From NCBI GenBank assembly GCA_021788015.1, contig JAJYLD010000002.1:26739-90738 (forward strand): 64,000 nt of DNA. Reading direction: 5' to 3'. The stretch comes from a bacterium (GTDB taxonomy: Bacteria > Patescibacteriota > Patescibacteriia > Patescibacteriales > JAKAJF01). Under the pieces are notes generated by a model. It saw nothing but the letters and a program-made list of their open reading frames with translations. It had not been told where the DNA came from and ran no database searches. A program made the position numbers and the translations under genes. Below are positions 8,995 to 61,529 of the stretch, in pieces. Position 1 is the first letter of the stretch. Each line of letters begins with the position of its first letter.

Positions 8995-9095
8995 CCTCCG
9001 TATTATTCTGAATTTAAATTCTCAAAGAGCGAAACGCTCCTCGCTATCTATGGACATCTTATCGAAAAATCGACAAATGTCAATAAAAAAAGCTC

Positions 9096-9752: not shown

Positions 9753-9854
9753 GCGCTCCCTCCTCTTTTTTTAAAATTTTAACCTAAAAATAAATTTTGT
9801 CAATTCATGAAAATAAAAAACCCGTCCGAAATCAATCGAACGGGTATTGAAAGT

Positions 9855-13781: not shown

Positions 13782-14462
13782 CTACGCACCTCCTCCGAAA
13801 AATTTTCTTTTATCGAAATCATCCATGTAAAAAACCTTGCCTTCATGCAGATAGATCTGCCGGTGCACAACCAGGTTAAGGATGTCACTTTGGACGGCAT
13901 GCTCATACGCGTTCACGCGCGCTTTCATAGTTTCAAGCGTATCCGATAAACGGATAGGTACATCTTTTTGTGTGATGATCTGCCCGGTGTCGTAGCCCGA
14001 CAGATCGAACGATGGCACGAAGTGCATTGTCACGGTGCTGTGCGTGATCCCGCCATCTTGGTAAGCGTCCCACACTTTTTTATGTATCTGATCACCGTGC
14101 AGACTTCTCGTGAAAGGCAGGGGGCCGCAATGAATGTTAACTGTCCTCTCCGTCTTGTTGCCGCGAATCGGCCTAAGCCAACCTGACAACATGATGAAAT
14201 CATGCGGATACTTTTCGAAAATGGCTTGGTAGGCTTCTGCCGTATACGGTCCCGGCATGTACACAAATGGGATCCCGTATTTATCGGCCAGAGTTTTAAC
14301 TCCTCCTGCGGGATAGTTCGATACTACGGCCGCAATCTCGGCATCAAGTCTGCCTAGACGGATGTTCAAAATCATCATCTCGCAACCCGAACCGCCTTTT
14401 CCCGGTTCTTTTTTACCACCCGCAAAAACCAAAATCTTCGACTTTTCTTTTTCTCCGTACAT
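13782..14462 (-). CDS. purN: Phosphoribosylglycinamide formyltransferase
   Basis: NIHCGPLP motif (PurN NIHPSLLP-like); formyltransferase fold; adjacent to purL. Confidence 0.7.
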   Translation of the reverse strand: MYGEKEKSKILVFAGGKKEPGKGGSGCEMMILNIRLGRLDAEIAAVVSNYPAGGVKTLADKYGIPFVYMPGPYTAEAYQAIFEKYPHDFIMLSGWLRPIRGNKTERTVNIHCGPLPFTRSLHGDQIHKKVWDAYQDGGITHSTVTMHFVPSFDLSGYDTGQIITQKDVPIRLSDTLETMKARVNAYEHAVQSDILNLVVHRQIYLHEGKVFYMDDFDKRKFFGGGA

Positions 14463-34777: not shown

Positions 34778-35905
34778 TCACCTTAATTCCAAATTCGGAT
34801 CTACTCTCAGTTTCTGCCATGGCGTAAATTTTTTCGCCCGCGCCCGAAAGTATCCGGCCGTCGCGATCATGGCCGCATTGTCAGTTGTATATTTTAAATC
34901 CGGTTGGTTGTAATGTACCCCCGGTAATTTTTCTTTTATCGTTTCCGCCATCTGTTCGCGCAATTTTTTATTCGCCGAAACTCCTCCCGAAAGCATGATT
35001 GTTTTCACTTTGTATTTTTCCGCCGCCTTGATTGTTTTATGAATTAAAACATCAACAACGGCCTGCTCGAACTCATACGCATATTCCGGAATTCTAGTTT
35101 TCCAGTTTTTATCATTTTTCAGTTTATAAAGCAACGCCGTTTTTAATCCGGAAAATGAAAAATGAAAATCTTTTGAATTTAACATGGGTCTGGGGAGGGG
35201 GATTTGTGATTTGAAACTTTGGGATAATTCTTTTTCATATTTGCTAGCCATTTTAGAAATAATCGGGCCACCCGGATAACCGATACCGAGCATGGTCGCC
35301 GCTTTATCAAACGCTTCTCCCGCCGCATCATCGATCGTTTCGCCGATAACATTATACTTCAAATGGTCTTTCATTAACACCAACATATTATGCCCGCCCG
35401 AAACAGTAAGAATGAGCGCCGGAAAATTAATTTGAGTTTTGAGTTTTGAATTTTGAATTTTGAGTTCGCGAATGAAATTCGCGTAAATATGTCCTTCGAT
35501 GTGATTCACGACAATTGTCGGAACATCCCACGCGTAAGCCAATGTCCGTGCCGTTTCAATACCGACGATTAAAGACGTGACCAGCCCGGGTCCGGTCGTG
35601 ACGGCAATAGCATCAATGCTCGCCGCCTTTAATAAGGAGGGATAAGAGGGATTCTTTTTGCCCCCTTTAGCAAGGTGGGGTAGGGGGGATTTTAAACCAG
35701 CTTTTTCCAACGCTTCATTCACTACCGGCAAAATATTTAAAACATGCTCGCGCGCGGCCACCTCGGGAACGACGCCGCCGTATTTTTTATGAATTTCGAT
35801 TTGCGAAGAAACTACATTTGATAAAACCTTTACATTTTCATCCTTCCCTTCAATAACCGAAGCCGCGGTTTCATCGCATGATGTCTCGATGCCTAAAATT
35901 TTCAT
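34778..35905 (-). CDS. tsaD: tRNA N6-adenosine threonylcarbamoyltransferase (Kae1/TsaD family) with two in-frame repeat-derived insertions
   Basis: MKILGIETSCDETAASVIEG N-terminus; inserts SPLPHLAKGGKKNPSYPSLLKA (hairpin-element-like DNA 35637..35690) and KIQNSKLKTQ ((TTTTGAG)n 35425..35465). Confidence 0.85.
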   Translation of the reverse strand: MKILGIETSCDETAASVIEGKDENVKVLSNVVSSQIEIHKKYGGVVPEVAAREHVLNILPVVNEALEKAGLKSPLPHLAKGGKKNPSYPSLLKAASIDAIAVTTGPGLVTSLIVGIETARTLAYAWDVPTIVVNHIEGHIYANFIRELKIQNSKLKTQINFPALILTVSGGHNMLVLMKDHLKYNVIGETIDDAAGEAFDKAATMLGIGYPGGPIISKMASKYEKELSQSFKSQIPLPRPMLNSKDFHFSFSGLKTALLYKLKNDKNWKTRIPEYAYEFEQAVVDVLIHKTIKAAEKYKVKTIMLSGGVSANKKLREQMAETIKEKLPGVHYNQPDLKYTTDNAAMIATAGYFRARAKKFTPWQKLRVDPNLELR

Positions 35906-38409: not shown

Positions 38410-40623
38410 TTATCTTTTATAAATCCTCAAACTGTTCGTCACCACCGAAACCGAACTGAAGGACATGGCGGCGGCGGCGATAATCGGGTTTAGCGCGCCG
38501 GAGATGGCAAGCGGGATGGCAATTACATTATAAATAAACGCCCAAAAAAGATTCTGTTTGATTGTTCTGAAGGTTTGGCGCGAAATTTTAATCGCTTCCG
38601 TAACTTTTTCCAAATCGTTTCGCATCAAAATAATCTGGCCCGCCTCTTTCGCGATGTCGGTCGCCGAGCCGACGGCGATTCCCAAATCGGCCCGCACCAA
38701 ACTCGGCGCGTCGTTAATTCCGTCGCCGACAAATATGACTCTTTCGCCCGCTTCTTGCAGTTTTTTTATTTCATCCTCTTTCTCGGAAGGCAAAACTTCG
38801 GCCAAAACTTTTTCAATTTCCAAATCATGCGCGACCGCTTCCGCCGTTTTTTTGTTGTCGCCGGAAATCATGCCCACCTTCAACCCCATTTTTTTCAATT
38901 TTCCGATTACATTTTTCGTTTCCGCGCGAATTTCATCGGCAATTAAAATTGCGCCCGCGATTTTTTTATCAATCCCGATAAAAAGCCATGTTCCAATCTC
39001 ATTTTTTTCTAAAATTCTTTCCGCCCAACTTGCTTCGATGCCGTTTTCTTCCATCATTTTCTTGTTGCCCATAAAAACAAAAGTTTTACGGGCGGGACAA
39101 ACCGCGGCCACACCCCTGCCTTCTTTTTCTTTAAAATTTTCAAATTGAGCAAGCTCGATATCTTCTTCTTGCGCATATTCGGCTACCGCCCGCGATAGAG
39201 GATGCTCGGAATTTTTCGCGAGCGACCCCGCGATTTTTAGAACTTTATTTTCATCGCCGTCAAAATCGGCGGTATTTATCATTATTTTCCGCACTTGCGG
39301 TTCACCCTTGGTCAAAGTTCCGGTCTTATCGAAAATAATCATGGTTATATTTTTGGCACGCTCGAAGCTTTCTCCGTTTTTAAAAAGTATGCCTCTTCTC
39401 GCGCCCTTGCCCGTTCCGACCATAATCGCGGTCGGGGTAGCGAGTCCTAAAGCGCAAGGGCAGGCGATAACTAAAACGGCGATGGCGTTGATCAAAGCGA
39501 TCGTAAAATCGCCTTTGGCCAAATACCAGCCGACAAAGCTAAGCACGGCCAGAGCTATTACCGTCGGCACAAAGATGCCGGAAATTTTGTCCGCCAATTT
39601 TTGCACGGGCGCTTTCGAACCTTGCGCGTCCTCGACGGTCTTGATTATTTGCGCCAGAACCGTGCCTTCGCCGACTTGCGTAACTTTAATTTTTAAAACT
39701 CCGCTTTGATTGATCGTCGCGCCGAACACTTTCGAGCCATTTCTTTTCTCAACCGGCATCGACTCGCCCGTAAGCATGGCTTCGTTCACGCTCGATTCTC
39801 CTTCCGTCACTTCGCCGTCCAACGGAATTTTTTCGCTCGGCTTGACTAAAAGCACATCCCCGATTTTTACTTCACTGATATCGATTTCTCTTTCGGTGTC
39901 ATTAATCAAAATTCTCGCTTTTTTCGCACCAAGTTCCATTAATTTGCGCATGGCTTCGCCGGCCCGGCCGGTCGATTTCGCTTCGAAAAATTTTCCGAGC
40001 AAAATCAAAGTAACGATCAAAGCCGCCGACTCGAAATAGCCCATCCGGCCGTTAAACACCGCCCAAAGACTGTAAAAATAAGCGGCCAAAGTACCCATGG
40101 AAACTAAGGTGTCCATGTTCGCATTCAGATGCCGCGCTTGTTTAAACGCCATTTTATGAAAACGCCAGCCGAAATAAAAAACGACGACGGTGGCCAAAAT
40201 AAACTGGAACCATATCGCCAAATCAAGATTTAAAATCATGACACCGGCGTGGAATTTATAAATCATTTCGACAAGCAAAGGCAAGCTGAAAATGACCGAA
40301 CCCAAAAATGCCCGCCAAGTTTTTTTCATATCTTCCGCTTCATGAACATGACCGCCATTCTCCATATGCATGTGATGCATACGCATTTCTTCTTCGTGAT
40401 GAGGCAAAAAAGATTCTTCGACATCGTATCCGTTATCCTTAATCACTTTCACCACTTGATCCACGTTTAAAACGTTTTCATCATATTCAACCGTAGCTTT
40501 TTTTGTCGCGAAATTTACGTTCGCGTTTAAAATACCCTTGGTTTTAGTAAGAGCTTTTTCGTTATTGAGAGCGCAACTCGCGCAGGTCATGCCGGTTACG
40601 GTTATAGTTAATTTTTTTGACAT
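38410..40623 (-). CDS. copA: Copper-translocating P-type ATPase
   Basis: N-terminal HMA GMTCASC, CPC in TM6 ([11 protein letters not shown]), [13 protein letters not shown]. Confidence 0.9.
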
Positions 40624-40868
40624 AAAATTAGATGATAGAAGGCAGACGACAGATTTTTAAAATTCTAAATCCTAAATTCACCCCGGCACCTTCAAGATTT
40701 TGTTTCCGAATAATTTATTTCTAAACCTTAAGTTTTAAAAAACCAAAATTTTGTTTTTAATTACGAAAGGCGCGGGGCAAGAATCCAAAATTATAAATCC
40801 GAATGGCGAAACGTTTTGAATTTTAATTTTTTGTTATTTGAAATTATTTAGAAGTTAGGTATTAGGAT

Positions 40869-41087
40869 TTAGAATTTTTCTACATCTGTTACTTTATACT
40901 CCGTTCCCTCAAGAGCTTTTTGAACTTCATCCAAACCGATTTCGCGATCAGCTTTAATTTCCGTTTCGCCATGAACGTCTTTAATTTCAATTTCTTTCAC
41001 TCCCGGAATTTCGGAAATCAATTTTTTCGAAGTGCTTATACATCCTTCGCAATGGAGATTGTTTATTTTAAACTTGATTGTGTTCAT
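40869..41087 (-). CDS. copZ: HMA-domain copper chaperone
   Basis: 72 aa, LHCEGC metal-binding loop, ferredoxin-like HMA fold. Confidence 0.75.
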   Translation of the reverse strand: MNTIKFKINNLHCEGCISTSKKLISEIPGVKEIEIKDVHGETEIKADREIGLDEVQKALEGTEYKVTDVEKF

Positions 41088-41096
41088 AGTAATATT

Positions 41097-42542
41097 TTAA
41101 TTATTGGTGCCGCAATTTGCGTCCGGGGTTAACCCGCAGGTTGAATCCTGACCCGTGTTACCATTGCCGCTTTCCGTTTTCGCGTTTGTATCATCCGTAA
41201 CAGTAAACGCACCCGTATACATGCCCATGGAGCAGGAAAAATCTATTTTACCCGCGGCGGAAGGAGTGAATTTAACCACGTTTTCTCCCTTTTTTAAATT
41301 CAACTGTAGACCGAGTCTCGGCGCGTATAAGCTGGAGGCGCAGGAATAAGGTTCTTTGGCGTCGATAATCCATTCGACCGGCACGCCCTTTTTAATCGTG
41401 AACGAACTCGGCGCATAGCCGTAACCTTCTTCGGTCATCCTGACGATCTGAACATCGTTTTGCGCATGCGAACCCGAGAAAACGCTTCCTTGGTTTAAAT
41501 TCGAATCGGAACCGAAACCGAGACTGGTTAAACGCGCGCCGTTCGAGATATTGAAAAAAGCGAGAAAAAGAACGGCAATGCCGGCGAATTTAAAAAACTT
41601 TTTCGCAAACGAACCTTTGACGACCGAAGTTAAGCCGCCGACGCCCAAAAGCCCGGGCACCGTACCCAAAGCGAACAAAGCCATGATAAGACCGCCGGTC
41701 ATAAAACTGCCTGTGCTTAAAGCGTAAACTTGCATGGCCTGAGTGAATCCGCAAGGAAGAAAAAAAGTCAGCGCGCCCAAAATGAATGAATTTTTATGGT
41801 TGTATTCTTTCTCGTGTCGCTTTATTCCGAGAATGCGTGTCAAACTTTTTGGCAATGTCAATTTAAAATTCTTAGAACGGGGAAAAACTTCGATCAGCTG
41901 AACGCCCAAACCGAGCATCAATAATCCGACTAAAATTGTTAAAAGCCCGGTAAGAAGGGGAGAGAGCCGAAAAGCCGATCCCAAGAGTCCTAAAATTCCG
42001 CCCAAAACGCCGAAGCCGATTACTCTTCCTAAATTAAAAAAAAGATGGGGGCGAAACCTTTCCAGGCGCGTCGCCTCCGGATGAGCTTCCGCGTGACGCG
42101 CGGAAATACCGAGAATCAAACCGCCGACCAAGGCCATACAAGAAGAAACGCCGGCCGTAAGCCCGACCAAAATCGGGATAAGCAATCCGGAAGGGTTGGA
42201 AAAACTGGCAATGCTTGCATTAAAAATGCCGAAAGCTTTCAAAATAAAGTAAATGCCGACGGCAAAAAGAAAAGCGATGCTCAAATCAAGATAATCTTTT
42301 TTGTTTTTGGAAAAAAACGGTTCCTTTCCGGATATTCCTATTTCATAGCCAGCGCCATGAACCGCTTTTTCTATTTCACCCATGTTCGGTCCATCGCCAT
42401 CAAAATAAATTTCCGCGTTTTGTTTTTTATGATTCGCTTCCGCGTTCTTTACCCCCGTTATTCCCTTAAGATTATTCTCGATTAAAATCTCGCAGGAACG
42501 GCAATGCATGCCTTTAATCGGCACCTTTATTTTTTTTGTCAT
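41097..42542 (-). CDS. HMA-domain fused to DsbD_2/CcdA-like transmembrane core with C-terminal cupredoxin-like domain (putative metal handling)
   Basis: N-terminal GMHCRSC HMA; multi-TM with conserved Cys; C-terminal beta-rich domain with Cys/Met/His ligand candidates. Confidence 0.55.
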   Translation of the reverse strand: MTKKIKVPIKGMHCRSCEILIENNLKGITGVKNAEANHKKQNAEIYFDGDGPNMGEIEKAVHGAGYEIGISGKEPFFSKNKKDYLDLSIAFLFAVGIYFILKAFGIFNASIASFSNPSGLLIPILVGLTAGVSSCMALVGGLILGISARHAEAHPEATRLERFRPHLFFNLGRVIGFGVLGGILGLLGSAFRLSPLLTGLLTILVGLLMLGLGVQLIEVFPRSKNFKLTLPKSLTRILGIKRHEKEYNHKNSFILGALTFFLPCGFTQAMQVYALSTGSFMTGGLIMALFALGTVPGLLGVGGLTSVVKGSFAKKFFKFAGIAVLFLAFFNISNGARLTSLGFGSDSNLNQGSVFSGSHAQNDVQIVRMTEEGYGYAPSSFTIKKGVPVEWIIDAKEPYSCASSLYAPRLGLQLNLKKGENVVKFTPSAAGKIDFSCSMGMYTGAFTVTDDTNAKTESGNGNTGQDSTCGLTPDANCGTNN

Positions 42543-42682
42543 AATTTATGATAAGCTGTCATACCTATAATACATGCCGGCATCAAAAAAATTTCAAACC
42601 GACTTAAAACAATCCGTTTCTGATTTTCATGATTTCCAAAAATTTTTGAGTGCTGAAAATTTTTCGATTCTTGTTTCTTCCG

Positions 42683-43003
42683 CTATTTCCCCATTATATC
42701 TTTTTTCTTTTGTTCGTATTCTTCTTTGTTAATCTCACCCTTCGCATATCTTTCGTCTAAAATACGTAAAGCGTCTTTTTCGCCTTCTTCATCGCAATAC
42801 GGGCAATGTCCGCGTCCGTGGCGATGCCCATAGTGCCGCCAGTATCCTCGCCCAGGCATAGTAAGGGCTCGAATCAGAGCGATGACGATACAGATAATAA
42901 TAATCCAAAAAACGATCATGAAAATTACGCCCATAAAACCGTATCCCGCTCCCCAATTGCCATAATATCCCATCATATTTTTCACCTCCCTTCTTATATA
43001 CAC
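42683..43003 (-). CDS. SHOCT-domain membrane protein
   Basis: TM segment then C-terminal ILDERYAKGEINKEEYEQKKKDI (SHOCT). Confidence 0.6.
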   Translation of the reverse strand: MYIRREVKNMMGYYGNWGAGYGFMGVIFMIVFWIIIICIVIALIRALTMPGRGYWRHYGHRHGRGHCPYCDEEGEKDALRILDERYAKGEINKEEYEQKKKDIMGK

Positions 43004-43138
43004 ACGAAGTTTAACGAATACGACACGAAGCTTAACGAATTAAATCCATCTTTAATTCTATTTAAAACATTGCTCAAAAATCGAGGCTCGCGCTATCTTT
43101 CGTGTTTATTCGTGTGCCTATTCGTTTATTTTTTGTGT

Positions 43139-43894
43139 TTAGTTTTGCAACTTGCCGTCGATAATTTGTTTTATTTGATCGTACGGATAAGCTCCTTGCA
43201 CTTCTTGGCCGTTGATAAAACTTGTCGGAGTGCCGTTTACGCCAAGCTGCTGACCTTCGGCCAAGTCTTTGTCGACTTTCTGCGCGGCTTCGCTGCCGGC
43301 GGTACAGGCATTGAATTTATTCATGTTTAATCCCATGCTTTGCGCCAGTTGGCCGAAATAGGAATCCGTAAACTTATCCTGGTTCCCGAAAAGCGTATAG
43401 CCGTATTCCCAAAATTTGCCCTGTTCGCCCGCGCATTGCGCCGCGATCGCCGCTTTTCTCGCGTAAGGATGGATCGAGGTGAGCGGAAAATATTTCCAAA
43501 CCCAACGCACTTTGCCCTTGTAATCCTGCATAATCTGTTGCATGGTTTGTTCGAAACGTGCGCAGTACGGGCATTCGAAATCGGAGAATTCGACGATGGT
43601 AACGGGAGCGTTTTTGTCTCCTTGAGTCCAATCGTCTTTCGAAATTTGTACGTTTACGTTTGTCGGGGTCGGCTGCGCGGCCGGAGCGGAATTGGAATTG
43701 CCGTTGGCATTGTTGCCGTTGTCATTGGCCTGAACCGTGTTTGCGCTATCGCTTGCGCCGTTATTGTTCGCGGCGCTAGAGAGATCTTTGCCTTTTTGAA
43801 AATAGGCGACGGTCATGATGATGAACCCGGTCAAAGAGATAACCGCGATCCCCGCGGCCAGGCCCAGAAGAAAATTTGTTTGTTTTTCTGACAT
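43139..43894 (-). CDS. Membrane-anchored thioredoxin-fold DsbA-like thiol:disulfide oxidoreductase
   Basis: CPYC active site, N-terminal TM anchor, Asn-rich linker. Confidence 0.7.
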   Translation of the reverse strand: MSEKQTNFLLGLAAGIAVISLTGFIIMTVAYFQKGKDLSSAANNNGASDSANTVQANDNGNNANGNSNSAPAAQPTPTNVNVQISKDDWTQGDKNAPVTIVEFSDFECPYCARFEQTMQQIMQDYKGKVRWVWKYFPLTSIHPYARKAAIAAQCAGEQGKFWEYGYTLFGNQDKFTDSYFGQLAQSMGLNMNKFNACTAGSEAAQKVDKDLAEGQQLGVNGTPTSFINGQEVQGAYPYDQIKQIIDGKLQN

Positions 43895-43994
43895 AAATTA
43901 TAATTTTGATGATTCAAATTATTTCGAATACTTCGAATATTTTTTAAAGAAAATTCGCGACATTCGTGTAATAATTTGAGTCATTCGCATTATG

Positions 43995-44288
43995 TTATTT
44001 ATTTGATAATTTTGTAACTTTTAAAATTTCATCCGTCATTTCCTGCTTCAACTTTTCGTTTTTCGAGGCTATGGCGTTTTTAAAACAGGAATTTAAATGA
44101 TTTTCCATCAACATCTGATGCGCCGATTTCAGAAGCCCGATGGCGGCCAAATTCTGCTGCATGATATCGATGCAGTAGTTCCTCTCTTCCGTCATTTTAA
44201 TAATTTTTTGGAGAAGTGTCGAGGCTTTTTTAAAATTGATTAGCGCCCGTTCGTGTTTTTTTGACATAAATTTCTCTAAAACTGGCAC
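43995..44288 (-). CDS. csoR: CsoR/RcnR-family metal-sensing transcriptional repressor
   Basis: 97 aa; conserved Cys-His-Cys ligand pattern (YCIDIMQQ ... H....C). Confidence 0.65.
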   Translation of the reverse strand: MPVLEKFMSKKHERALINFKKASTLLQKIIKMTEERNYCIDIMQQNLAAIGLLKSAHQMLMENHLNSCFKNAIASKNEKLKQEMTDEILKVTKLSNK

Positions 44289-50544: not shown

Positions 50545-50847
50545 TTATTTTATCTTAAAAATCGTTTTTATGTACTTTTCGTCGATTTTTTCCTTGTTGC
50601 AAATTAATTCGTCTTTTAAAAGCTCAACGCCAAGCATATTTACCGCTTCGCGAATGGCGGTAATTTGCGTAATGATATTCAAGCATTCCTTTTTTTCCTG
50701 AACCATTCTTTTTATTCCCTTTAATTGCCCTTCGATTCTCGAAACACGATTTAAAATTTCAGTTTCATCTGAATTTGAAATTACTTTTGACTTTTGCTTG
50801 TCCCGTAGCGAGCCTTCCCCGCCTCGGGGACTTTTGACTTTTAACAT
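50545..50847 (-). CDS. Second CsoR/RcnR/FrmR-family repressor (start taken at internal MLKVKS)
   Basis: ILNRVSRIEGQLKGIKRMVQEKKECLNIITQITAIREAVNMLGVELL matches the DUF156 W-X-Y-Z ligand pattern. Confidence 0.6.
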   Translation of the reverse strand: MLKVKSPRGGEGSLRDKQKSKVISNSDETEILNRVSRIEGQLKGIKRMVQEKKECLNIITQITAIREAVNMLGVELLKDELICNKEKIDEKYIKTIFKIK

Positions 50848-51470
50848 ACCTCTAGGGGGTATATTATCATGGATTAAAAAATCCGTCAAGAATGCGAAAG
50901 GGACTGTCATAAAAGACCAGTCCCTGTTATTTTTTCACCTCCTTGAATTTGCCGTGGGTACCTATTTCTGAAAATCCAGAAATTCCGCAGGCCCACAGGA
51001 GTGCATCGGATAAAACTTGCACTCTGGAACAGGTAATCCCTGTTCCTTAGATCGAGGTCGCCCGTTTTACTAAGGGGTGACGAGCGTTGCCCGGACCACC
51101 TCCTTTTTCCCCAAAGCTCTTGCCGAAGTGTGGATGCTTTTCATGTTTTTCCTCCCGTGGAGCGAAAATTATGGCCCATTTGCTGCGGTTCAGGATAAAA
51201 ACTGTAATCTTGGCATCCCTTATTTTTTTGCGCCGGTCACCCCAAAAATGCGGGTGATTTTTCTTAATTAACCCAATGTTAATTTCTGATCCCTCCTTCC
51301 CTGAGAAATTCGTTTTTTAAAAAGTAATCCTTACTTTCATTAAACCAAATTTAAATCAAATGTCAAATTAAAATTCATGCTTGACAAAATAGGGTCTTTA
51401 TCATAATATTATATTGATAGAACTTCCGGTTCTATTTTTATGTTTATAATTCAAATTACATTTTAAACGT

Positions 51471-52536: not shown

Positions 52537-52546
52537 CGCCCACATG

Positions 52547-52575
52547 AATAAAAAACGCTTGCATTCGCAAGCGTT
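52547..52575. terminator. Bidirectional Rho-independent terminator (AACGCUUGCauucGCAAGCGUUUUUUAUUU)
   Basis: 9-bp stem with A-run and T-run on either side. Confidence 0.7.
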
Positions 52576-52616
52576 TTTTATTTGCTTAATTTAAATTTAA
52601 AAGTTAAGATAAAAAC

Positions 52617-53039
52617 ATGAAATTCATATCGCAATCCGAAAAAGACACATATGACTTGGCGAAAAAAATGGCGAAAACCTTAAGGGGGGGAGAAATTATC
52701 GGCCTTGTCGGCGAACTTGGCGCGGGGAAAACGGTTTTTACGAAAGGCTTGGCCGCCGGTCTCGGAATTAAAAAGCATATTACCAGTCCGACTTTCATTT
52801 TGATGAAAATTTATAGAATTACAAATCGTAAATTACAAATCGCCAAATTTATCCATATCGACGCTTACCGCTTGAAAAACTTTCATGATTTAAAAAATAT
52901 CGGCATCGAAGAATACTTAAACCGCAAAGACGCGATCGTAATAATCGAATGGGCGGACATAGTAAAAAGGGGGTTGCCGAAAAGAGCAAAATTTATTAAG
53001 ATAATCTCAATAAAAAATAAACGAGAAATTTATGTTTAG
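52617..53039 (+). CDS. tsaE: tRNA threonylcarbamoyladenosine biosynthesis ATPase TsaE (YjeE)
   Basis: P-loop GELGAGKT, 140 aa. Confidence 0.85.
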   Translation: MKFISQSEKDTYDLAKKMAKTLRGGEIIGLVGELGAGKTVFTKGLAAGLGIKKHITSPTFILMKIYRITNRKLQIAKFIHIDAYRLKNFHDLKNIGIEEYLNRKDAIVIIEWADIVKRGLPKRAKFIKIISIKNKREIYV

Positions 53040-54381
53040 GGATGAAGGGTTAGAAAAAATAAAAAATTCTTCGGTCGAAAATTTAGAAAAAGAAAAAATT
53101 TTGGACTTTCTTTTAAAATTTTCGATTTTAAAATCACAAACAATCAACCAAGGTACAAACGGAATTATAAAAAGAATAGATGCCGAAAATTTTCCGCAAG
53201 CTCTGTTGGAATATTTTAAAGAACGGGGAATTATTAATTCGGACAATAGGAATGATTTGGTGTTTAAAATTATAAAAATTTATTCTGGCGGCAGGGGGAG
53301 GAAAGAATATGAAAGACAAAGCAAGGCTTATGAAATTGTGCAAAATAAAATCTTGGAAAATGACGGAAAAGAATATGCGTCAATTCCAAAGCCTTATTAT
53401 TATAAAGAATTGGAAATAGATTCGGAGCTGAAACAAATGGCAAAAAATGACGGAATGAAACCAAATCAAAAAAAATTAGAGGTTTTACTAATGGACTTTA
53501 TAGACGGAAACGACCTTGCCACCATGCTATACAGAGAAGTTTTGAAAAGACATCCGGATACGGTTCATTTAAAAGAAGAAGAAATTAATCAGATGTCTAT
53601 AACGGAACTGGAAAAAGAAGTTTCTTCTTGTTTGCGTTTTAATGTTCCCGGAGGGAAAAACAGCAATCCGGGAGAAAACGCATTTGAAGCCGAAATAGTT
53701 TTTAACGAAAACACCAAACGCATGATTGATTTCTTAAAAAGAAAGGGTGTTAAACTTAACCGGGAAATTTTTGAAAAGCTTAAAAATACAATCGATCTTT
53801 TGCATTCTAACGGATTTTTTCACAGAGATCTTCACGAAAGAAACGTTATGCTTTCGGATGACAACATTTTTATTATAGATTTCGGAGAATCTATTTCAAA
53901 CGTTCTTCCCGAATTTAAAGAAGGTGTTTATAATGAGACCATGTCCGATAAAAAATGGATTGATGATAAAAATATTTTAAACAAATATAAATCTTTGGCC
54001 GACAAGAACGATCCTCGGTTTTCAAAAGAATTCCAAGAATTTTTGGAAGAAATGGATTTTGTCGTTAAAGATGAAGTTTTTATCTCAAAAATAAAATCTT
54101 ATGGCAAGGTTGCGCCGGACGAAGTCGACAAAATTTCTTCCGATATAGCGTCCGAATTCGATCCTTTTTTGGGAGATTTGTTTTATAACGTTAAATTTCT
54201 CGCAATTAAAAATTTTTTAGATAAACTAACCTCGTCTGAAAAAAAAGAAGCTTTGGAGCGTATAACGGAGAAAAATAAAAATACCAGCTTTTTTTTAAAC
54301 AAGATACTGAGATTTTTGTCCGCCGAACCCGAATTAAATCAGAAATCGGCGAAAGTAAAAAAGAAAAAAGAGCGCAATTAG
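53032..54381 (+). CDS. Eukaryotic-like protein-kinase-fold protein, translationally coupled to tsaE
   Basis: Gly-rich loop QGTNGIIK, hinge LLMDFIDG, catalytic loop HRDLHERNVML, DFG (IIDFGES); start overlaps tsaE stop (ATGTTTAG). Confidence 0.65.
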   Translation: MFRDEGLEKIKNSSVENLEKEKILDFLLKFSILKSQTINQGTNGIIKRIDAENFPQALLEYFKERGIINSDNRNDLVFKIIKIYSGGRGRKEYERQSKAYEIVQNKILENDGKEYASIPKPYYYKELEIDSELKQMAKNDGMKPNQKKLEVLLMDFIDGNDLATMLYREVLKRHPDTVHLKEEEINQMSITELEKEVSSCLRFNVPGGKNSNPGENAFEAEIVFNENTKRMIDFLKRKGVKLNREIFEKLKNTIDLLHSNGFFHRDLHERNVMLSDDNIFIIDFGESISNVLPEFKEGVYNETMSDKKWIDDKNILNKYKSLADKNDPRFSKEFQEFLEEMDFVVKDEVFISKIKSYGKVAPDEVDKISSDIASEFDPFLGDLFYNVKFLAIKNFLDKLTSSEKKEALERITEKNKNTSFFLNKILRFLSAEPELNQKSAKVKKKKERN

Positions 54382-54386
54382 GCGCT

Positions 54387-54569
54387 CTATAACTCGCGAA
54401 GAGTATTAAATTTTATCTTTGCTTCTCCTTCTTTTCCGTCTTTAATGATTATGACATTTTCGGACTTGTCCCATTCAAGGGTAAGTCCGTCTCTTTTTGC
54501 CGTTTTAGAGGCCAGCAAAAAAAGCTCTTCGTCCGACAAGTCTGCGCCCGCCTTATTTATCTTGAGCAT
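54387..54569 (-). CDS. Hypothetical small protein
   Basis: ORF only. Confidence 0.3.
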   Translation of the reverse strand: MLKINKAGADLSDEELFLLASKTAKRDGLTLEWDKSENVIIIKDGKEGEAKIKFNTLREL

Positions 54570-54620: not shown

Positions 54621-55076
54621 TTATTTTTTGTCAACTCTCCGCCAACTAAAAAGTAACCCCGCCACTCCGATCACTATGGCGACGTCCGCCAGATTGAAAA
54701 CAGTGAAATATTTTAGATAAAGATAATCGACGACAAAACCGTAATTGATTCTGTCCATGAGATTGCTCATGCTTCCCAAAAAAACCAAAAAGGCGAAAAT
54801 CGCTTCCGGCCTTTTTTCTTTAAACAGAGATACAAAATAATACCCAAAAGCGAGAGCAACGACAACGATAAGGGCAAAAACAATTTTTCCTTGCAAGGGG
54901 AGAGAGAAGGCGATTTGATAATTTTTTGCGAAATCGATTCGAAAAAAATCGCCAAAAATTTTCGGTTCGCTTATTATTCCGTTAACCACTCCGTATTTTA
55001 TCGCTCGATCCGCGACAATAAAAAGAACGGCGGCAAAATAAAAAGCCGCCATTCTTTTTTTATCCGAAAAAAACAT
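54621..55076 (-). CDS. lspA: Lipoprotein signal peptidase (signal peptidase II)
   Basis: Four TM helices, conserved FNLAD and NxGxxF(VVD) motifs. Confidence 0.85.
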   Translation of the reverse strand: MFFSDKKRMAAFYFAAVLFIVADRAIKYGVVNGIISEPKIFGDFFRIDFAKNYQIAFSLPLQGKIVFALIVVVALAFGYYFVSLFKEKRPEAIFAFLVFLGSMSNLMDRINYGFVVDYLYLKYFTVFNLADVAIVIGVAGLLFSWRRVDKK

Positions 55077-57759: not shown

Positions 57760-58212
57760 TTATCCATTATTAACATTGACACCGTTGTTACCGTTATTAT
57801 TGATTGTCCCACCCAGCTTTTTAAAGACAAAGCCGGTAATTATATATGCCGAAGCTATTATAATCAAACCGATTATTCCTCGGAAAATTAATTTTTGCGC
57901 TTTCTCGACCTTTTCTTCGTTACCGCCCGCGGTAAGCCAATTGTAGCCGGCGAGAATGATTATAATTATGAAAATTATTCCCAACAACCCAAGAAACGCC
58001 TGTATGAATGAAGCGATTATATCCGCAGGCATCGCCCCCGCATCGTATCCGGCGCTGTCGTTGAACGACCCCGCTTGGTCGCCCATTTGCCCCACGGTAT
58101 CCGGATTTAATCCAATGGCGTAAGCATGATTCGAAATTAAGAAGGTTAAAAAAAGTGCGATCAAAGAAAAAAATTTTTTTATTCTGTTGCGCGCCTTTTG
58201 CTTTTCTAACAT
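57760..58212 (-). CDS. VirB2/TrbC-like two-helix secreted membrane protein (array copy 1; Asn-rich C-terminal tail)
   Basis: Sec signal, variable ectodomain, conserved LGLLGIIFIIIIILAGYNWLTAGGNEEKVEKAQK...IGLIIIASAYIITGFV. Confidence 0.5.
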   Translation of the reverse strand: MLEKQKARNRIKKFFSLIALFLTFLISNHAYAIGLNPDTVGQMGDQAGSFNDSAGYDAGAMPADIIASFIQAFLGLLGIIFIIIIILAGYNWLTAGGNEEKVEKAQKLIFRGIIGLIIIASAYIITGFVFKKLGGTINNNGNNGVNVNNG

Positions 58213-58275
58213 ATTGTTTTCTCTTTATTAAAATCCGCTCGTTTTTTATTATATGAAATTTGGGGTTTTTACTAT

Positions 58276-58674
58276 TTAACTATATAAAAGTTTATTTAAA
58301 ACAAAATTCCAAATCGCGTAAGCCCCGATAATTATGATTAAACCGATTAAAGTGCGCCACAGCGTATCCTTGGCTCTGTCCACCTTTTCTTCATTGCCGT
58401 TTGCGGTCATCCAATTATAACCGGAGTATATGATCAAAATAATAAAAATTATGCCGAGCAATCCCAAAAAAGCGCCGACAACTTGTCCGATAATTTGTGA
58501 TAATGAATATTGATTGACGTCGTTGGTTTGATAGCCGCCGGTTCCCGCAGTGCCCTGGAGATTTTTAAACATGGCATTGTTCGTATTTACCGAACCGGAA
58601 GCATCGGCAAAGACCGTATGACCGACAAAAGCCATGGATAAGCTGAAAATCAAAATTAAAATTATTTTTTTCAT
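58276..58674 (-). CDS. VirB2/TrbC-like two-helix protein (array copy 2)
   Basis: LGLLGIIFIILIIYSGYNWMTANGNEEKVDRAKD...IGLIIIIGAYAIWNFVL. Confidence 0.5.
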   Translation of the reverse strand: MKKIILILIFSLSMAFVGHTVFADASGSVNTNNAMFKNLQGTAGTGGYQTNDVNQYSLSQIIGQVVGAFLGLLGIIFIILIIYSGYNWMTANGNEEKVDRAKDTLWRTLIGLIIIIGAYAIWNFVLNKLLYS

Positions 58675-58686
58675 ATTACTGATTGT

Positions 58687-59154
58687 TTATGGCGCTGGCG
58701 ACTGGGTTTGCTGCGTAGACGAAGATGGATTTGTGTACTTTGCCGCAAAGTAGTAAAGAACAAAGTAAGTGATTGCGTATGCGGAAACTACAATGATTAA
58801 ACCGATAATCGCGTTTTTTAAAATTCCCTGTGCCTTGTCAACTTGTTCGCCATTGCCCGAAGCCGTCATCCAAAGATAGCCGGCATAAAAAGCCAAAACG
58901 ATAAATATTACGCCCAAAAGCGATAAAAATATCTGAATAAAACTTCCTATAAGTTGAGTAAGCGCGGCCGTGCTATCTGTTACGGGGGCATATTGAGCGG
59001 CGGATCCCGCGTCTTTAAGCAAACCCGAAACCGTGGAGGGATTGGAACCGGGGGTATTATTGGTGGCTATGACAAAGGCCGGAAAAAGAAAAATTGAAAT
59101 TAAGAAAACGAGGGTTAAAATTTTTATTTTTTTGATCATATTAGAATCCCGCAT
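58687..59154 (-). CDS. VirB2/TrbC-like two-helix protein (array copy 3)
   Basis: LSLLGVIFIVLAFYAGYLWMTASGNGEQVDKAQG...IGLIIVVSAYAITYFVL. Confidence 0.5.
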   Translation of the reverse strand: MRDSNMIKKIKILTLVFLISIFLFPAFVIATNNTPGSNPSTVSGLLKDAGSAAQYAPVTDSTAALTQLIGSFIQIFLSLLGVIFIVLAFYAGYLWMTASGNGEQVDKAQGILKNAIIGLIIVVSAYAITYFVLYYFAAKYTNPSSSTQQTQSPAP

Positions 59155-59614
59155 TATAGCCCGTCACGCGCGCCAACGAACTGATTATAAAATAACTTAT
59201 GACATAAAGCGCGGCAATAAGCACGACTCCTATCGTCGAATGCAAAATTGTTCTTTTCGCTTCCCCGATTTTTTCTTCATTCCCGGCGGACGTGAGCCAA
59301 ATGTATCCTCCCCAGACAAGTCTTATTAGAAAAAGTACGCCGACGAAAGGAAAAATTAAAAGAACATCTCCGATATAATTCGCCAAAGCCGAGCTTGAAT
59401 CTCCTTGAATGTTATTATAAACGGAATTTTGCGCCTGGCTTGCCGTTGCGTCATCAAGATTGGTTTGCCAAGCCCCCAAACCGGCGGCATTGACGACATT
59501 GACCGACGCGACAGATTTAATCCCGATGACTCCGAACAAAAATGAAATTCCAAAATATTGGACAAATAAGAAAAGAATTAACGCCAAAAATTTATTTTTT
59601 TTTACAAAATGCAT
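59141..59614 (-). CDS. VirB2/TrbC-like two-helix protein (array copy 4, most divergent)
   Basis: FVGVLFLIRLVWGGYIWLTSAGNEEKIGEAKR...IGVVLIAALYVISYFII. Confidence 0.45.
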   Translation of the reverse strand: MHFVKKNKFLALILFLFVQYFGISFLFGVIGIKSVASVNVVNAAGLGAWQTNLDDATASQAQNSVYNNIQGDSSSALANYIGDVLLIFPFVGVLFLIRLVWGGYIWLTSAGNEEKIGEAKRTILHSTIGVVLIAALYVISYFIISSLARVTGYNAGF

Positions 59615-59616
59615 AC

Positions 59617-60024
59617 TTATTGGATTTTGAAAATTTCTCTTCCTTGCCCTCCTTGAGCAATCCCCAAAACAACATTCACAAAAATAAAGGCGGCAAAAAT
59701 TATTAAAATACCGATGGCTCCGTTTTTAATTCTCGCTTTGCCTTTCACCAGAAGTTCCTCATTGCCATTCGCTCCCAAAATATCCAAAGCGCCCATCCAG
59801 GCGATAATCATAAAAATCAAACCGATAAGAGAAAGGGCGATGTTTATGAAATAACCGACCGTGGTCGCTATCGTGCCGCTATCCGCCGGCATGGCGTCGT
59901 TATAACCGATGTTTTGGGCCGTATTCCCCAAACCCGTTGAACTGGCGAAATCAAAAGCAAAGACTTTCCCTGCTCCAAAAAAAATAAAAATTAGAATACT
60001 TAAAATCAGTGTGGTCTTTTTCAT
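59617..60024 (-). CDS. VirB2/TrbC-like two-helix protein (array copy 5; start taken at internal MKKTTLIL)
   Basis: LSLIGLIFMIIAWMGALDILGANGNEELLVKGKA...IGILIIFAAFIFVNVVL. Confidence 0.45.
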   Translation of the reverse strand: MKKTTLILSILIFIFFGAGKVFAFDFASSTGLGNTAQNIGYNDAMPADSGTIATTVGYFINIALSLIGLIFMIIAWMGALDILGANGNEELLVKGKARIKNGAIGILIIFAAFIFVNVVLGIAQGGQGREIFKIQ

Positions 60025-60195
60025 CCCGTTAAAAATAAACCCTGTAGTACACCTCGTAAACTCGGCGACTAAGGGGCGAGGCGTGGTTGAATAATAGTTT
60101 TGTGCAATGGAACTTGTCCCGCAGCCAAATACAACAGGATTTACGGTATCGTGATTCGCGATCAAAAAGGCAGGGCTTTTACGGAATTCAATTTC

Positions 60196-60603
60196 CTATT
60201 TAACAAAATAACCGATAACCGTTTGGCCCAAAAACTTCGTAATAAGGTAGGCGGCGGCGATTATGACCAAGCCGACCGAAGCGCGAATGGCGGTTGAAAT
60301 CGCCATATTCACTTTTTCTTCGTTCCCGCCCGCCGTCATCCACATAAATCCGGCGTAGATAATCAAAATTAAAAAAATGATACCGATAAAAGCGAGCAGG
60401 CTGCTTATAATATTTCCGATGATTGCGGCAACGTCAGTATTCCCATTGGCCATGTAGTCGGGAGCGGAAGCCTTTAACCCATTTTGAGCCGGGTCCAGAT
60501 AATTGGTATCGGCTAAGACAAAATTATTATGCGTAAACAAAAAAAAGGCCAGCACAAAGCTGAGCATAGTCAAAATTTTCCTTGTTAAGGCCTTTTTTTG
60601 CAT
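60196..60603 (-). CDS. VirB2/TrbC-like two-helix protein (array copy 6; start taken at internal MQKKALTRKIL)
   Basis: LAFIGIIFLILIIYAGFMWMTAGGNEEKVNMAIS...VGLVIIAAAYLITKFL. Confidence 0.5.
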   Translation of the reverse strand: MQKKALTRKILTMLSFVLAFFLFTHNNFVLADTNYLDPAQNGLKASAPDYMANGNTDVAAIIGNIISSLLAFIGIIFLILIIYAGFMWMTAGGNEEKVNMAISTAIRASVGLVIIAAAYLITKFLGQTVIGYFVK

Positions 60604-60628
60604 AATATAAGTTTTGATTTTTTGTTTT

Positions 60629-61033
60629 TTATCCAGTCGCTCCGGTAGAGGTGTAAATTTGGCTGATAACGAAATTTGTGACGCCAAACGCCGCTAAAAT
60701 GATTAATAGCCCGATAAAACCGGCAACAATCATTTTTCGCGCCTCCGATATTTTTTCATCATTTCCGGCCGAAGTCATCCATTTAAAACCGCCGATCAAA
60801 ACAATGGCCAGGGCAATAAGCCCCAAGAAACCGAGAAGAACCCGGATGAAGAAAGCGGCGATGTCTCGAGGATCTTGATTCCCCAAACCGGAATTGGTCT
60901 GGATGTCCTGCTGCTTGTTGTCCCAAAGCAAACTATTTGCATCGGCTTTCGCTTGAGGGGTTATCGTTAAGGCCGGCACAATTATGGTAAGCGCCATGAC
61001 AAAAACGATAAGTTGCTTAACTAGATTTATCAT
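60629..61033 (-). CDS. VirB2/TrbC-like two-helix protein (array copy 7)
   Basis: LGFLGLIALAIVLIGGFKWMTSAGNDEKISEARK...IGLLIILAAFGVTNFVI. Confidence 0.5.
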   Translation of the reverse strand: MINLVKQLIVFVMALTIIVPALTITPQAKADANSLLWDNKQQDIQTNSGLGNQDPRDIAAFFIRVLLGFLGLIALAIVLIGGFKWMTSAGNDEKISEARKMIVAGFIGLLIILAAFGVTNFVISQIYTSTGATG

Positions 61034-61133
61034 ATTTTTAATTTTAGTTTTTATTGTTCACTGCTTTGCACGCGAATTTTTCCCGTCCAAAGCAGTGGAT
61101 TCCTAAAAAGAAATCCACAAATTTTAGAGGAAA

Positions 61134-61529
61134 TTAACTGCCGGTTGCCGTCATTAAACTATTGATGACAAAGGTTGCGATGCCATAAGCGGCCAAAATG
61201 ATAACCAAGCCTATAATGCCGGCCGTAATCAATTTTTTAGCTTCTTCAACTTTATCTTCATTGCCGGCGGCGGTCATCCATTTAAAACCTCCCAATAAAA
61301 TGATTATCACGGCGACGATGCCCAAGAAACCGAGAATAACTTTAATAACGTTTGCCGCAATCGTTCTTGGGTCATTGCTGCCCAAACCGATGTTGGTGAC
61401 GTCCTGTTGATGCCCTCCCCAAGGATCGAGTCCCTGCGCGCTGGCAACGTTAATGGCCAAACTAAAAACAGGTATAATCATTAAAAGGGCTAGAGAATAA
61501 GTTATTAATTTTCTATAGATTTTTTCCAT
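61134..61529 (-). CDS. VirB2/TrbC-like two-helix protein (array copy 8; closest paralogue of copy 7)
   Basis: LGFLGIVAVIIILLGGFKWMTAAGNEDKVEEAKK...IGLVIILAAYGIATFVI. Confidence 0.5.
   Translation of the reverse strand: MEKIYRKLITYSLALLMIIPVFSLAINVASAQGLDPWGGHQQDVTNIGLGSNDPRTIAANVIKVILGFLGIVAVIIILLGGFKWMTAAGNEDKVEEAKKLITAGIIGLVIILAAYGIATFVINSLMTATGS

What the first reader, a model, noticed from the sequence alone, without database searches (positions are those of the whole stretch)
53032..54381. Eukaryotic-like protein-kinase-fold gene translationally coupled to tsaE
The 449-aa ORF overlaps the tsaE stop (ATGTTTAG). It carries a Gly-rich loop, a hinge LLMDFIDG, a catalytic loop HRDLHERNVML and DFG. 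In archaea and eukaryotes the t6A KEOPS complex contains the Bud32 kinase, for which bacterial TsaE is considered the functional stand-in. Finding a kinase-fold protein fused operonically to tsaE raises the possibility of a hybrid t6A system; alternatively it is an unrelated Ser/Thr kinase.
Basis: partly seen in the sequence, partly recalled or inferred. Interest (0 to 1): 0.6.

Follow-up and report, generated by a model that had tools for sequence, protein, structure and literature searches.

The report
CPR-specific atypical kinase beside tsaE
The gene is real and encodes a catalytically intact member of an undescribed kinase-fold family confined to ultra-small (CPR/Patescibacteria) bacteria, but its coupling to the tRNA-modification gene tsaE looks like gene order retained in one lineage, not a hybrid archaeal-style t6A machine.

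Summary
A 449-aa ORF (53032-54381, +) overlaps the stop of a bona fide tsaE by 8 nt and carries all the kinase catalytic motifs. It belongs to a distinct, unnamed family of ~440-aa kinase-fold proteins: about 350 clusters at 50% identity, and every locus whose record names a lineage is a Patescibacteria MAG. G41, K79, E92, D266, N271 and D283 are invariant across 70 diverse members. No curated family claims it. Bud32 scores 34 bits against a cutoff of 125. Pkinase, APH and RIO1 match weakly, Pkinase and RIO1 only at the catalytic loop. A confident AlphaFold model (pLDDT 88) finds only generic kinase folds.

The tsaE link is not general. Of ~42 distinct loci, 6 have tsaE immediately upstream (one inferred from a 31-aa fragment), and 2 more have tsaD-tsaE within 1-3 kb. 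All four linked loci long enough to judge share the block tsaE-kinase-lspA-dksA, so this is retained synteny. Elsewhere the gene follows MFS transporters, iPGM, glycosyltransferases, Era, QueA and others. The window's TsaD is the ordinary bacterial type.

Best reading: a stand-alone atypical phosphotransferase of unknown substrate, co-expressed with tsaE in one lineage. The Bud32-like reading is unlikely (~7%). Interest is modest.

The parts
52617..53039 (+). tsaE (140 aa), t6A ATPase subunit with an intact Walker A (GELGAGKT)
   Evidence: PF02367 121 bits, TIGR00150 108.7 bits
53032..54381 (+). Kinase-fold ORF (449 aa), member of an unnamed CPR-restricted family
53032..53039 (+). 8-nt overlap ATGTTTAG (kinase start / tsaE stop), consistent with translational coupling
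   Evidence: Equivalent junctions in relatives: -25 nt (L004), -4 (L020), +1 (L031), -4 (L034)
53146..53163 (+). Nucleotide-binding loop NQGTNG (aa 39-44; G41 invariant, G44 >=90%)
53266..53307 (+). beta3 Lys K79 (invariant) through alphaC Glu E92 (invariant); includes GGRGRK
53821..53844 (+). Catalytic loop HRDLHERN (aa 264-271): D266 and N271 invariant, H268 and R270 in >=90% of members
53878..53886 (+). DFG (aa 283-285): D283 invariant, G285 in >=90%, F284 in >=80% of members
53971..54378 (+). Helical region from the short helix that follows the near-invariant D312 (aa 314-323) through the C-terminal helical bundle (aa ~330-448). Present family-wide but poorly conserved
   Evidence: Model mc9fd46c60d2b. 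For aa 331-449: occupancy 0.81 and no residue >=80% conserved
52545..52584 (+). Terminator-like hairpin between tRNA-Val and tsaE; suggests tsaE-kinase is its own bicistronic unit
   Evidence: tRNAs
54369..54388 (-). Terminator-like hairpin spanning the kinase stop, between convergent genes
54621..55076 (-). lspA (signal peptidase II), part of the conserved syntenic block
   Evidence: PF01252. Same position in L020, L031 and L034
55085..55537 (-). dksA/traR-type zinc-finger protein, part of the conserved syntenic block
   Evidence: PF01258. Same position in L020 and L034 by Pfam and in L020, L031 and L034 by BLASTP
34778..35905 (-). tsaD, bacterial type, 17 kb away. Shows the genome has the ordinary bacterial t6A transferase
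   Evidence: PF00814 281 bits. TIGR03723 372.5 bits > cutoff 296; arch_KAE1 167 < cutoff 375

Best explanation
The ORF encodes a catalytically competent, cytoplasmic ATP-dependent phosphotransferase. It belongs to a previously undescribed, Patescibacteria-restricted branch of the protein-kinase-like superfamily. Its layout is an N-terminal helix, a kinase N-lobe, a ~70-aa helical insert between alphaD and alphaE, the catalytic loop H-R-D-L-H-E-R-N, DFG, a short activation segment with no APE motif, and a variable C-terminal helical bundle. It is co-transcribed and probably translationally coupled with tsaE. That coupling is a lineage-specific retained gene order (rplS...tsaE-kinase-lspA-dksA), not a functional t6A module, and the enzyme acts on something other than the t6A machinery. 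I lean towards an atypical protein kinase or autophosphorylating ATPase, with Arg at D+4 as in tyrosine kinases and fast-evolving non-catalytic surfaces, rather than a small-molecule kinase. Shown: fold, intact catalytic residues, family size and distribution, and the pattern of gene neighbourhoods. Inferred: catalytic activity, independence from t6A, and substrate class.
For: Family and catalytic integrity: 348 clusters at E<=1e-30. G41, K79, E92, D266, N271 and D283 are invariant in 70 diverse members; H268, R270, G285 and D312 are >=90%. Fold: AF2 model with pLDDT 88.2 and pTM 0.76. All 50 listed Foldseek PDB hits are protein kinases, including PRPK at rank 5, and the best profile-vs-PDB hits are eukaryotic-type protein kinases. 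Pfam vote over 70 members: Pkinase 64, APH 56, Kdo 37, RIO1 26. Not a t6A module: tsaE is adjacent in 6 of ~42 loci, and the four long enough to judge all carry lspA and dksA downstream. Other lineages have MFS (x5), iPGM (x2), GT4 (x2), GH-like (x2), Era, PilB, QueA or VanY upstream, and FtsW, an aaRS or Fic downstream. TsaD is the bacterial type. The kinase diverges faster than its neighbours: 28% identity against TsaE 44-48%, DksA 45-51% and L19 78%. No TsaE fusions among 150 representatives. Leaning to a protein substrate: no residue outside the ATP and catalytic core is strongly conserved in the post-DFG and C-terminal regions apart from D312, which argues against a fixed small-molecule pocket.
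Against: The tsaE junction is tight (overlap or 1 nt) in all five loci where it can be read, across kinases only 24-30% identical. Two further lineages have tsaD-tsaE within 1-3 kb (L042, L011). Together that is somewhat more than random placement predicts. The top NCBIfam hit is Bud32, and PRPK has the best target-normalised TM-score (0.50). No TsaB was found in the window or beside tsaD-tsaE in L011 or L042, so a missing-partner scenario is not excluded. Against a protein substrate: His rather than Lys at D+2, no APE/P+1 loop, the Pfam APH model aligns over 174 residues above its gathering score (29.6 vs 23.2), and some lineages couple the gene tightly to MFS transporters and sugar-related enzymes. 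No activity has been measured.
Confidence: 0.55

Rival explanations
1. It is a small-molecule kinase of the APH/CAK type, for example a sugar or salvage kinase. This would parallel the AmgK-like phosphotransferase that follows tsaE in Alphaproteobacteria, phosphorylating an imported metabolite in a scavenging CPR cell.
For: The Pfam APH model passes its gathering score and aligns residues 113-286, and APH matches 56 of 70 members with a best E of 4e-12. His sits at D+2 of the catalytic loop, there is no APE motif, and a helical insert precedes the catalytic loop with C-terminal helices after it. From memory, that layout resembles APH-type enzymes. The gene is tightly coupled (2-3 nt) to an MFS transporter in 5 loci, and lies next to iPGM, GH-like and GT4 genes in others. 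Precedent: Sphingomonas has tsaE > phosphotransferase > nucleotidyltransferase with 4-nt overlaps, and that phosphotransferase is a bona fide APH-family protein (PDB 3csv, 203 bits).
Against: There is no specific relationship to the Sphingomonas phosphotransferase: hhalign aligns only 36 catalytic-loop columns at probability 4.6%, and BLASTP gives E 0.12. No APH-type structure appears in the 50 Foldseek hits listed. No nucleotidyltransferase partner lies next to the gene in the window. The putative substrate-binding regions (post-DFG, C-terminal bundle) have essentially no conserved residues. The neighbours are heterogeneous and include translation-related genes.
Confidence: 0.27
2. It is a Bud32-like accessory kinase/ATPase of a hybrid bacterial t6A system. 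It would bind TsaD and/or TsaE, perhaps substituting for TsaB, and tune threonylcarbamoyl transfer.
For: The gene is translationally coupled to tsaE in 5-6 loci from two deeply diverged kinase clades. tsaD-tsaE lie 1-3 kb away in two more lineages. The top NCBIfam hit is Bud32, and PRPK is among the best structural hits. TsaB was not detected in the window or near tsaD-tsaE in relatives. QueA, an aaRS and Era/Der are neighbours in other lineages.
Against: The Bud32 score of 34 bits against a cutoff of 125 covers only the generic catalytic loop. The size and architecture are unlike Bud32. About 34 of ~42 loci have no tsaE within 5 kb. Every linked locus long enough to judge shares lspA and dksA downstream, so there is one retained block and not repeated recruitment. 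Kinases closer to the window's than the L020 clade (L001 and L002, 38-40% identity) are unlinked. TsaD and TsaE are canonical bacterial proteins. The kinase evolves much faster than TsaE. TsaB absence cannot be judged from 64 kb.
Confidence: 0.07
3. It is a defence- or mobile-element-associated kinase, such as a Stk2 or PD-T4-6-like abortive-infection kinase.
For: Weak PADLOC hits to PD-T4-6, mad6, MkoA and Stk2 models, and Pfam TCAD9 hits.
Against: Nearly all hits cover only the ~45-residue catalytic loop at 15-37 bits. There are no homologs in 50,697 phage or 72,556 plasmid records. The gene lies among housekeeping genes in every locus examined. No partner defence genes are present.
Confidence: 0.03

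Closest known systems
Eukaryotic-type (Hanks) protein kinases, Pfam PF00069 / PF07714
   Same: Bilobal kinase fold. Gly loop, beta3 Lys, alphaC Glu, HRD...N catalytic loop, DFG, and an Asp ~29 residues after DFG (inferred to be the alphaF Asp equivalent). Arg at D+4 as in HRDLAARN tyrosine kinases. They are the best sequence-profile and Foldseek matches.
   Different: The score is just below Pfam's cutoff (30.5 vs 31.7) and aligns only ~47 residues. His replaces Lys at D+2. There is no APE/P+1 loop, a ~70-aa insert lies between alphaD and alphaE, and there are an extra N-terminal helix and a C-terminal bundle. TM-scores are only 0.2-0.3.
APH / choline-aminoglycoside kinase superfamily (PF01636), including the AmgK-like phosphotransferase encoded after tsaE in Sphingomonas
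   Same: Passes the APH gathering score over 174 residues. Catalytic loop of the RD-x-H-x-x-N-x-ML type followed by a D-F motif. Same operon position immediately downstream of, and overlapping, tsaE.
   Different: There is no specific homology beyond the catalytic loop. It keeps a true DFG and HRD. No MurU-like nucleotidyltransferase follows. It is 449 aa against 322 aa.
Bud32/PRPK (KEOPS kinase) and RIO kinases
   Same: Atypical kinases with no canonical activation loop. Bud32 is functionally tied to t6A. PRPK gives the highest target-normalised TM-score (0.50). RIO1 passes its Pfam cutoff on a 50-residue stretch.
   Different: Bud32 models score 20-34 bits against cutoffs of 125-372. Only 26 of 70 members hit RIO1. 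It is twice the size of Bud32. From knowledge, the catalytic loop is HRDLHERN rather than Bud32/RIO's HGDL(T/S)xxN. No Kae1-type partner is present, since TsaD is the bacterial type.

Membership tests
Protein-kinase-like superfamily (Pfam clan CL0016) | Bilobal fold with Gly loop, beta3 Lys, alphaC Glu, catalytic Asp/Asn and metal-binding Asp | tested here: met
   G41, K79, E92, D266, N271 and D283 are invariant in 70 members. AF2 model pLDDT 88 with 683 Foldseek hits at E<=0.001, all 50 listed being kinases
Bud32 / PRPK (KEOPS kinase) | Score above the curated cutoff of the Bud32 equivalog models (TIGR03724, NF011460-64) | tested here: not met
   Best score 34.1 bits vs cutoff 125, covering residues 240-285 only
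Bud32 / PRPK (KEOPS kinase) | Minimal ~200-230-aa kinase with a truncated C-lobe, partnered with Kae1 | tested here: not met
   449 aa with an insert and a C-terminal bundle. The genome's transferase is bacterial TsaD, not Kae1
Bud32 / PRPK (KEOPS kinase) | Conserved genomic or physical association with the t6A transferase across the family | tested here: not met
   tsaE is adjacent in 6 of ~42 loci, all consistent with one syntenic block. tsaD is never adjacent. Physical interaction is not testable here
RIO kinases (PF01163) | Full-length match to the RIO domain | tested here: inconclusive
   26.9 bits exceeds the cutoff of 22 but covers only profile positions 105-154 of 187. Only 26 of 70 members match
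Hanks-type protein kinase (PF00069) | Pfam gathering score, and an activation segment ending in APE | tested here: not met
   30.5 bits is below the cutoff of 31.7, with 47 residues aligned. There is no APE motif in the family consensus after DFG
APH / CAK phosphotransferases (PF01636) | Pfam gathering score | tested here: met
   29.6 bits exceeds 23.2, aligning residues 113-286 to profile positions 52-196 of 239. 56 of 70 members match. This is superfamily-level only, because Pkinase scores equally
AmgK-like phosphotransferase (tsaE-linked, Alphaproteobacteria) | Specific homology to the tsaE-adjacent phosphotransferase, and a following MurU-like nucleotidyltransferase | tested here: not met
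   hhalign probability 4.6% over 36 columns, and BLASTP E 0.12. Downstream of the kinase in the window are the convergent orf60, lspA and dksA
Bacterial t6A system (TsaB-TsaD-TsaE plus TsaC) | Presence of tsaE, tsaD, tsaB and tsaC | tested here: inconclusive
   tsaE and tsaD are present. Every ORF >=180 aa in the window was scanned with Pfam or had precomputed Pfam hits, and none is TsaB or TsaC. The window is only 64 kb of the genome, so absence cannot be concluded
Defence-system kinases (PADLOC: PD-T4-6, Stk2, mad6) | Full-length model match and a defence-island or mobile context | tested here: not met
   Nearly all hits cover only the catalytic loop at <=37 bits. No phage or plasmid homologs

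The most novel reading that the evidence does not exclude
TsaE may have a recurrent functional partnership with kinase-fold phosphotransferases. In one Patescibacteria lineage this divergent kinase would act as a Bud32-like ATPase/kinase accessory to, or regulator of, the TsaD-TsaE t6A machinery, possibly where TsaB is missing. The independent tsaE-phosphotransferase coupling in Alphaproteobacteria would reflect the same underlying link rather than coincidence.
Probability: 0.07. Interest if true: 0.8.

Novelty: new variant of a known kind. Interest (0 to 1): 0.33.

Why it matters
If the main reading is right, this defines a sizeable kinase-like family that is catalytically intact and has no curated model or source name. 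It has about 350 clusters at 50% identity and appears specific to Patescibacteria, a group whose regulation and salvage biochemistry are almost unknown. It is a concrete target for biochemical characterisation: either the main eukaryotic-like signalling kinase of these reduced genomes, or a missing salvage kinase. It also serves as a caution. A striking operonic overlap with tsaE, plus a weak top hit to Bud32, does not amount to a KEOPS-like hybrid once the neighbourhood is compared across relatives. The minority reading would matter more, because the role of TsaE beyond resetting TsaBD remains debated.

Tried and rejected
(1) The word-index homolog search found only 9 relatives and made the family look tiny. 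The exhaustive profile search corrected this.
(2) The search for related loci with the 70-member alignment failed because no stretch was conserved enough. The 9-member alignment worked.
(4) I looked for TsaE-kinase fusions among the 150 best representatives and found none. The long N-terminal extensions are low-complexity.
(5) I tested whether the 336-389-aa upstream neighbours were TsaD. They are not; they are MFS, GT4 and GH-like proteins.
(6) I looked for TsaB among unassigned ~217-aa ORFs (window 4035-4685 and 9096-9752; L011 7735-8388) and got no hits.
(7) A defence or mobile-element origin was rejected.
(9) Specific homology to the alphaproteobacterial tsaE-linked phosphotransferase was rejected.
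(10) No public source gives these proteins a name.
Full report
**Observation**

The ORF at 53032-54381 (+) is 449 aa with an ATG start. The ORF just upstream, 52617-53039, is an unambiguous TsaE (PF02367 121 bits against a cutoff of 26.6; TIGR00150 108.7 against 60.1). The two overlap by 8 nt: ATG TTT AG, with the tsaE TAG at 53037-53039.

One correction concerns the Gly-rich loop. By family alignment the real nucleotide-binding loop is NQGTNG (aa 39-44). The eye-catching GGRGRK (aa 86-91) lies after the beta3 lysine.

A terminator-like hairpin (52545-52584) separates tRNA-Val from tsaE, and another spans the kinase stop codon. This fits a bicistronic tsaE-kinase unit.

**What the protein is**

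Curated libraries place it in the kinase superfamily but in no particular family.
- Pfam: Pkinase 30.5 bits (cutoff 31.7), APH 29.6 (cutoff 23.2) and RIO1 26.9 (cutoff 22). APH aligns residues 113-286. Pkinase and RIO1 align only ~47-50 residues around the catalytic loop.
- NCBIfam: the top hit is Bud32, at 34 bits against a cutoff of 125.
- Homologs: a word-indexed search found only nine. An exhaustive HMM search with their alignment found 11,005 proteins at E<=0.001, of which 348 clusters (50% identity) reach E<=1e-30. Most of the 150 listed are 400-470 aa and match over nearly the full length.

In an alignment of 70 diverse members, the invariant columns include the kinase catalytic set: G41, K79, E92, D266, N271 and D283. 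M1, P119, M154, G159 and D161 are also invariant. G44, K82, H268, R270, G285 and D312 are present in at least 90% of members. This is therefore an active-looking enzyme family, not a pseudokinase.

A family-wide Pfam vote is split: Pkinase 64 of 70, APH 56, PK_Tyr_Ser-Thr 39, Kdo 37, RIO1 26. The best PDB sequence matches are eukaryotic-type protein kinases (EGFR, HIPK, CDPK, ULK1, CK2 and others), plus the Legionella effector kinase LegK4, and only over the alphaE-catalytic loop-DFG segment.

With the 70-sequence alignment, AlphaFold gives a confident model (pLDDT 88.2, pTM 0.76). Its elements are:
- an N-terminal helix (aa 5-33);
- an N-lobe with an extra helix between beta2 and beta3;
- alphaD, followed by a ~70-aa helical insert carrying a conserved PGGK loop;
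- alphaE, the catalytic loop and DFG;
- a short post-DFG segment with no APE motif, but with the near-invariant D312;
- a helical bundle running to the C-terminus.

Foldseek against PDB returns only generic kinase hits: E ~1e-5, query-normalised TM <= 0.29, RMSD 7-20 Å.

Conservation is concentrated in the kinase core. The C-terminal bundle is present family-wide (occupancy 0.81) but has no residue conserved at 80% or more. No public source names these proteins, and I found no literature on them.

**Is the tsaE linkage conserved?**

I collected about 42 distinct family loci from exact-protein look-ups, species-representative genomes (34 loci; every record that names a lineage is a Patescibacteria/Parcubacteria-type MAG, the others carry generic or 'uncultured Gammaproteobacteria' labels) and metagenomes.

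An HMM built from the window and L004 TsaE sequences finds tsaE immediately upstream on the same strand in these loci:

| Locus | tsaE-kinase junction |
|---|---|
| window | -8 nt |
| L004 | -25 nt |
| L020 | -4 nt |
| L031 | +1 nt |
| L034 | -4 nt |

A sixth locus, L008, probably belongs with them. Only a 31-aa fragment precedes its kinase, and it aligns to the TsaE C-terminus at the EWA motif.

Two further lineages have a tsaD-tsaE pair downstream: 1.2 kb in L042 and 2.2 kb in L011. The remaining ~34 loci have no tsaE within the 4-6 kb flanks examined (less where the contig ends sooner).

On an NJ tree the adjacent cases form two clades, window/L004/L008 and L020/L031/L034, only 24-30% identical to each other. 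Taken alone, that would suggest repeated recruitment.

The neighbourhoods say otherwise. All four linked loci with enough sequence share tsaE > kinase > <lspA <dksA-type. L020 adds rnc and nusB, and L034 also has rplS upstream, as the window does. lspA and dksA have no t6A connection. The simplest reading is one ancestral local gene order retained in one organismal lineage.

The kinase is the fastest-evolving gene within that block:

| Gene | Identity to the window copy |
|---|---|
| kinase | ~28% |
| LspA | 33-36% |
| TsaE | 44-48% |
| DksA-type | 45-51% |
| L19 | 78% |

Kinases closer to the window's than the L020 clade is (L001 and L002, 38-40% identity) are not linked to tsaE. The linkage has therefore been lost without obvious constraint.

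In other lineages the gene is just as tightly coupled to quite different genes:
- Upstream: an MFS transporter (5 loci, 2-3 nt gaps), iPGM (2), GT4 glycosyltransferases (2), GH-like proteins (2), Era, a PilB-type ATPase, QueA and VanY.
- Downstream: FtsW/RodA, a class I aaRS, and Fic.

No representative is a TsaE fusion.

**The rest of the t6A system**

The window encodes TsaD at 34778-35905 (-). It is clearly the bacterial type: TIGR03723 scores 372.5 bits (cutoff 296), while arch_KAE1 scores 167 (cutoff 375). TsaE is canonical.

Every window ORF of 180 aa or more was scanned with Pfam or had precomputed Pfam hits, and none is TsaB or TsaC. A 64-kb window cannot establish their absence from the genome.

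**A precedent outside CPR**

Using the window's TsaE as a query against annotated plasmid and chromid records, I found a Sphingomonas replicon with tsaE > 'phosphotransferase' (322 aa) > 'nucleotidyltransferase family protein', each junction a 4-nt overlap. That phosphotransferase is a solid APH-family protein (PDB 3csv, 203 bits). From my own knowledge, this arrangement corresponds to the AmgK/MurU MurNAc-recycling pair.

A kinase-fold gene translationally coupled to tsaE is therefore not unique to this window. The CPR family is not specifically related to that protein, however. hhalign aligns only 36 catalytic-loop columns at 4.6% probability, and BLASTP gives E 0.12. No nucleotidyltransferase follows the gene here.

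**Other readings rejected**

PADLOC hits (PD-T4-6, mad6, Stk2) are nearly all confined to the catalytic loop. The family has no homologs in the phage or plasmid collections.

**Mechanism**

Shown:
- a kinase fold with a complete catalytic apparatus;
- a sizeable CPR-restricted family;
- a tight overlap with tsaE in one syntenic lineage;
- varied housekeeping neighbours elsewhere.

Inferred: the protein binds ATP/Mg through K79-E92, N271 and D283, and transfers phosphate using D266 as the base. R270 at D+4 would play the role it has in HRDLAARN tyrosine kinases.

I lean towards an atypical protein kinase or autophosphorylating ATPase. Residues that could define a small-molecule pocket are not conserved, and the best matches are protein kinases. 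The small-molecule APH-like reading keeps substantial weight for these reasons: His at D+2, no APE motif, the long APH alignment, and the MFS and sugar-enzyme neighbours. The Bud32-like t6A reading is not excluded but has little support (~7%).

**Verdict**

It is a new variant within the protein-kinase-like superfamily, of modest interest.

Noticed in passing
window 25222-26808 (-): A 528-aa protein combining Radical_SAM, Radical_SAM_C and a GNAT acetyltransferase domain. From memory, this is the architecture of Elp3 (tRNA wobble-uridine modification), which is rare in bacteria.
   Followed up: no
window 7780-14462 (-): A purine de novo synthesis cluster: a PurM-like AIRS protein, a 1308-aa single-chain FGAM synthase (PurL-type) and a PurN-like formyltransferase. 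FolD and SHMT lie nearby at 21720-24122. From memory, this is unexpected in a CPR-type genome, since these are usually described as lacking nucleotide biosynthesis.
   Followed up: no
window 57760-61529 (-): A tandem array of at least six small (131-157 aa) membrane proteins with T4SS_pilin/TrbC-like hits, interspersed with two to three similar-sized ORFs that have no hit. Just beyond the array are TruB and RNase J (ORFs).
   Followed up: no
window 34778-35905 (-): TsaD is 375 aa and matches the TsaD models in two stretches, implying a ~25-aa insertion in the N-terminal region compared with typical TsaD sequences (334-343 aa in L011 and L042).
   Followed up: partly
L034 3536-4462 (+): In one relative, a low-molecular-weight phosphotyrosine-phosphatase/ArsC-like gene and an unknown 154-aa gene directly precede tsaE-kinase on the same strand. 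This could be a kinase/phosphatase pairing, but it was seen in only one locus.
   Followed up: no
L053 3971-6134 (Sphingomonas parapaucimobilis NZ_CP155749.1): tsaE, an APH-family phosphotransferase and a nucleotidyltransferase are chained by 4-nt overlaps. This is an independent tsaE-kinase-fold coupling in Alphaproteobacteria, and I found no discussion of why it exists in the papers I read.
   Followed up: partly
L042 3036-8714 and L014 3236-6188: A PilB-type (T2SSE) ATPase lies next to the kinase in L014, and next to tsaD-tsaE, 2.7 kb from the kinase, in L042. This hints at remnants of an older, larger syntenic region containing the kinase, tsaD/E and pilB.
   Followed up: no
window 54387-54569 (-): A 60-aa ORF convergent with the kinase gene, called as a gene on the public contig. 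It has no family hit, and its relationship to the small minus-strand ORFs downstream of the kinase in L004 and L008 was not resolved.
   Followed up: no
window 38410-44267 and 50545-50910 (-): A metal-handling cluster: a Cu-type P1B ATPase with an HMA domain, an HMA-DsbD-cupredoxin fusion protein, a DsbA-like protein and two CsoR-type (Trns_repr_metal) repressors.
   Followed up: no
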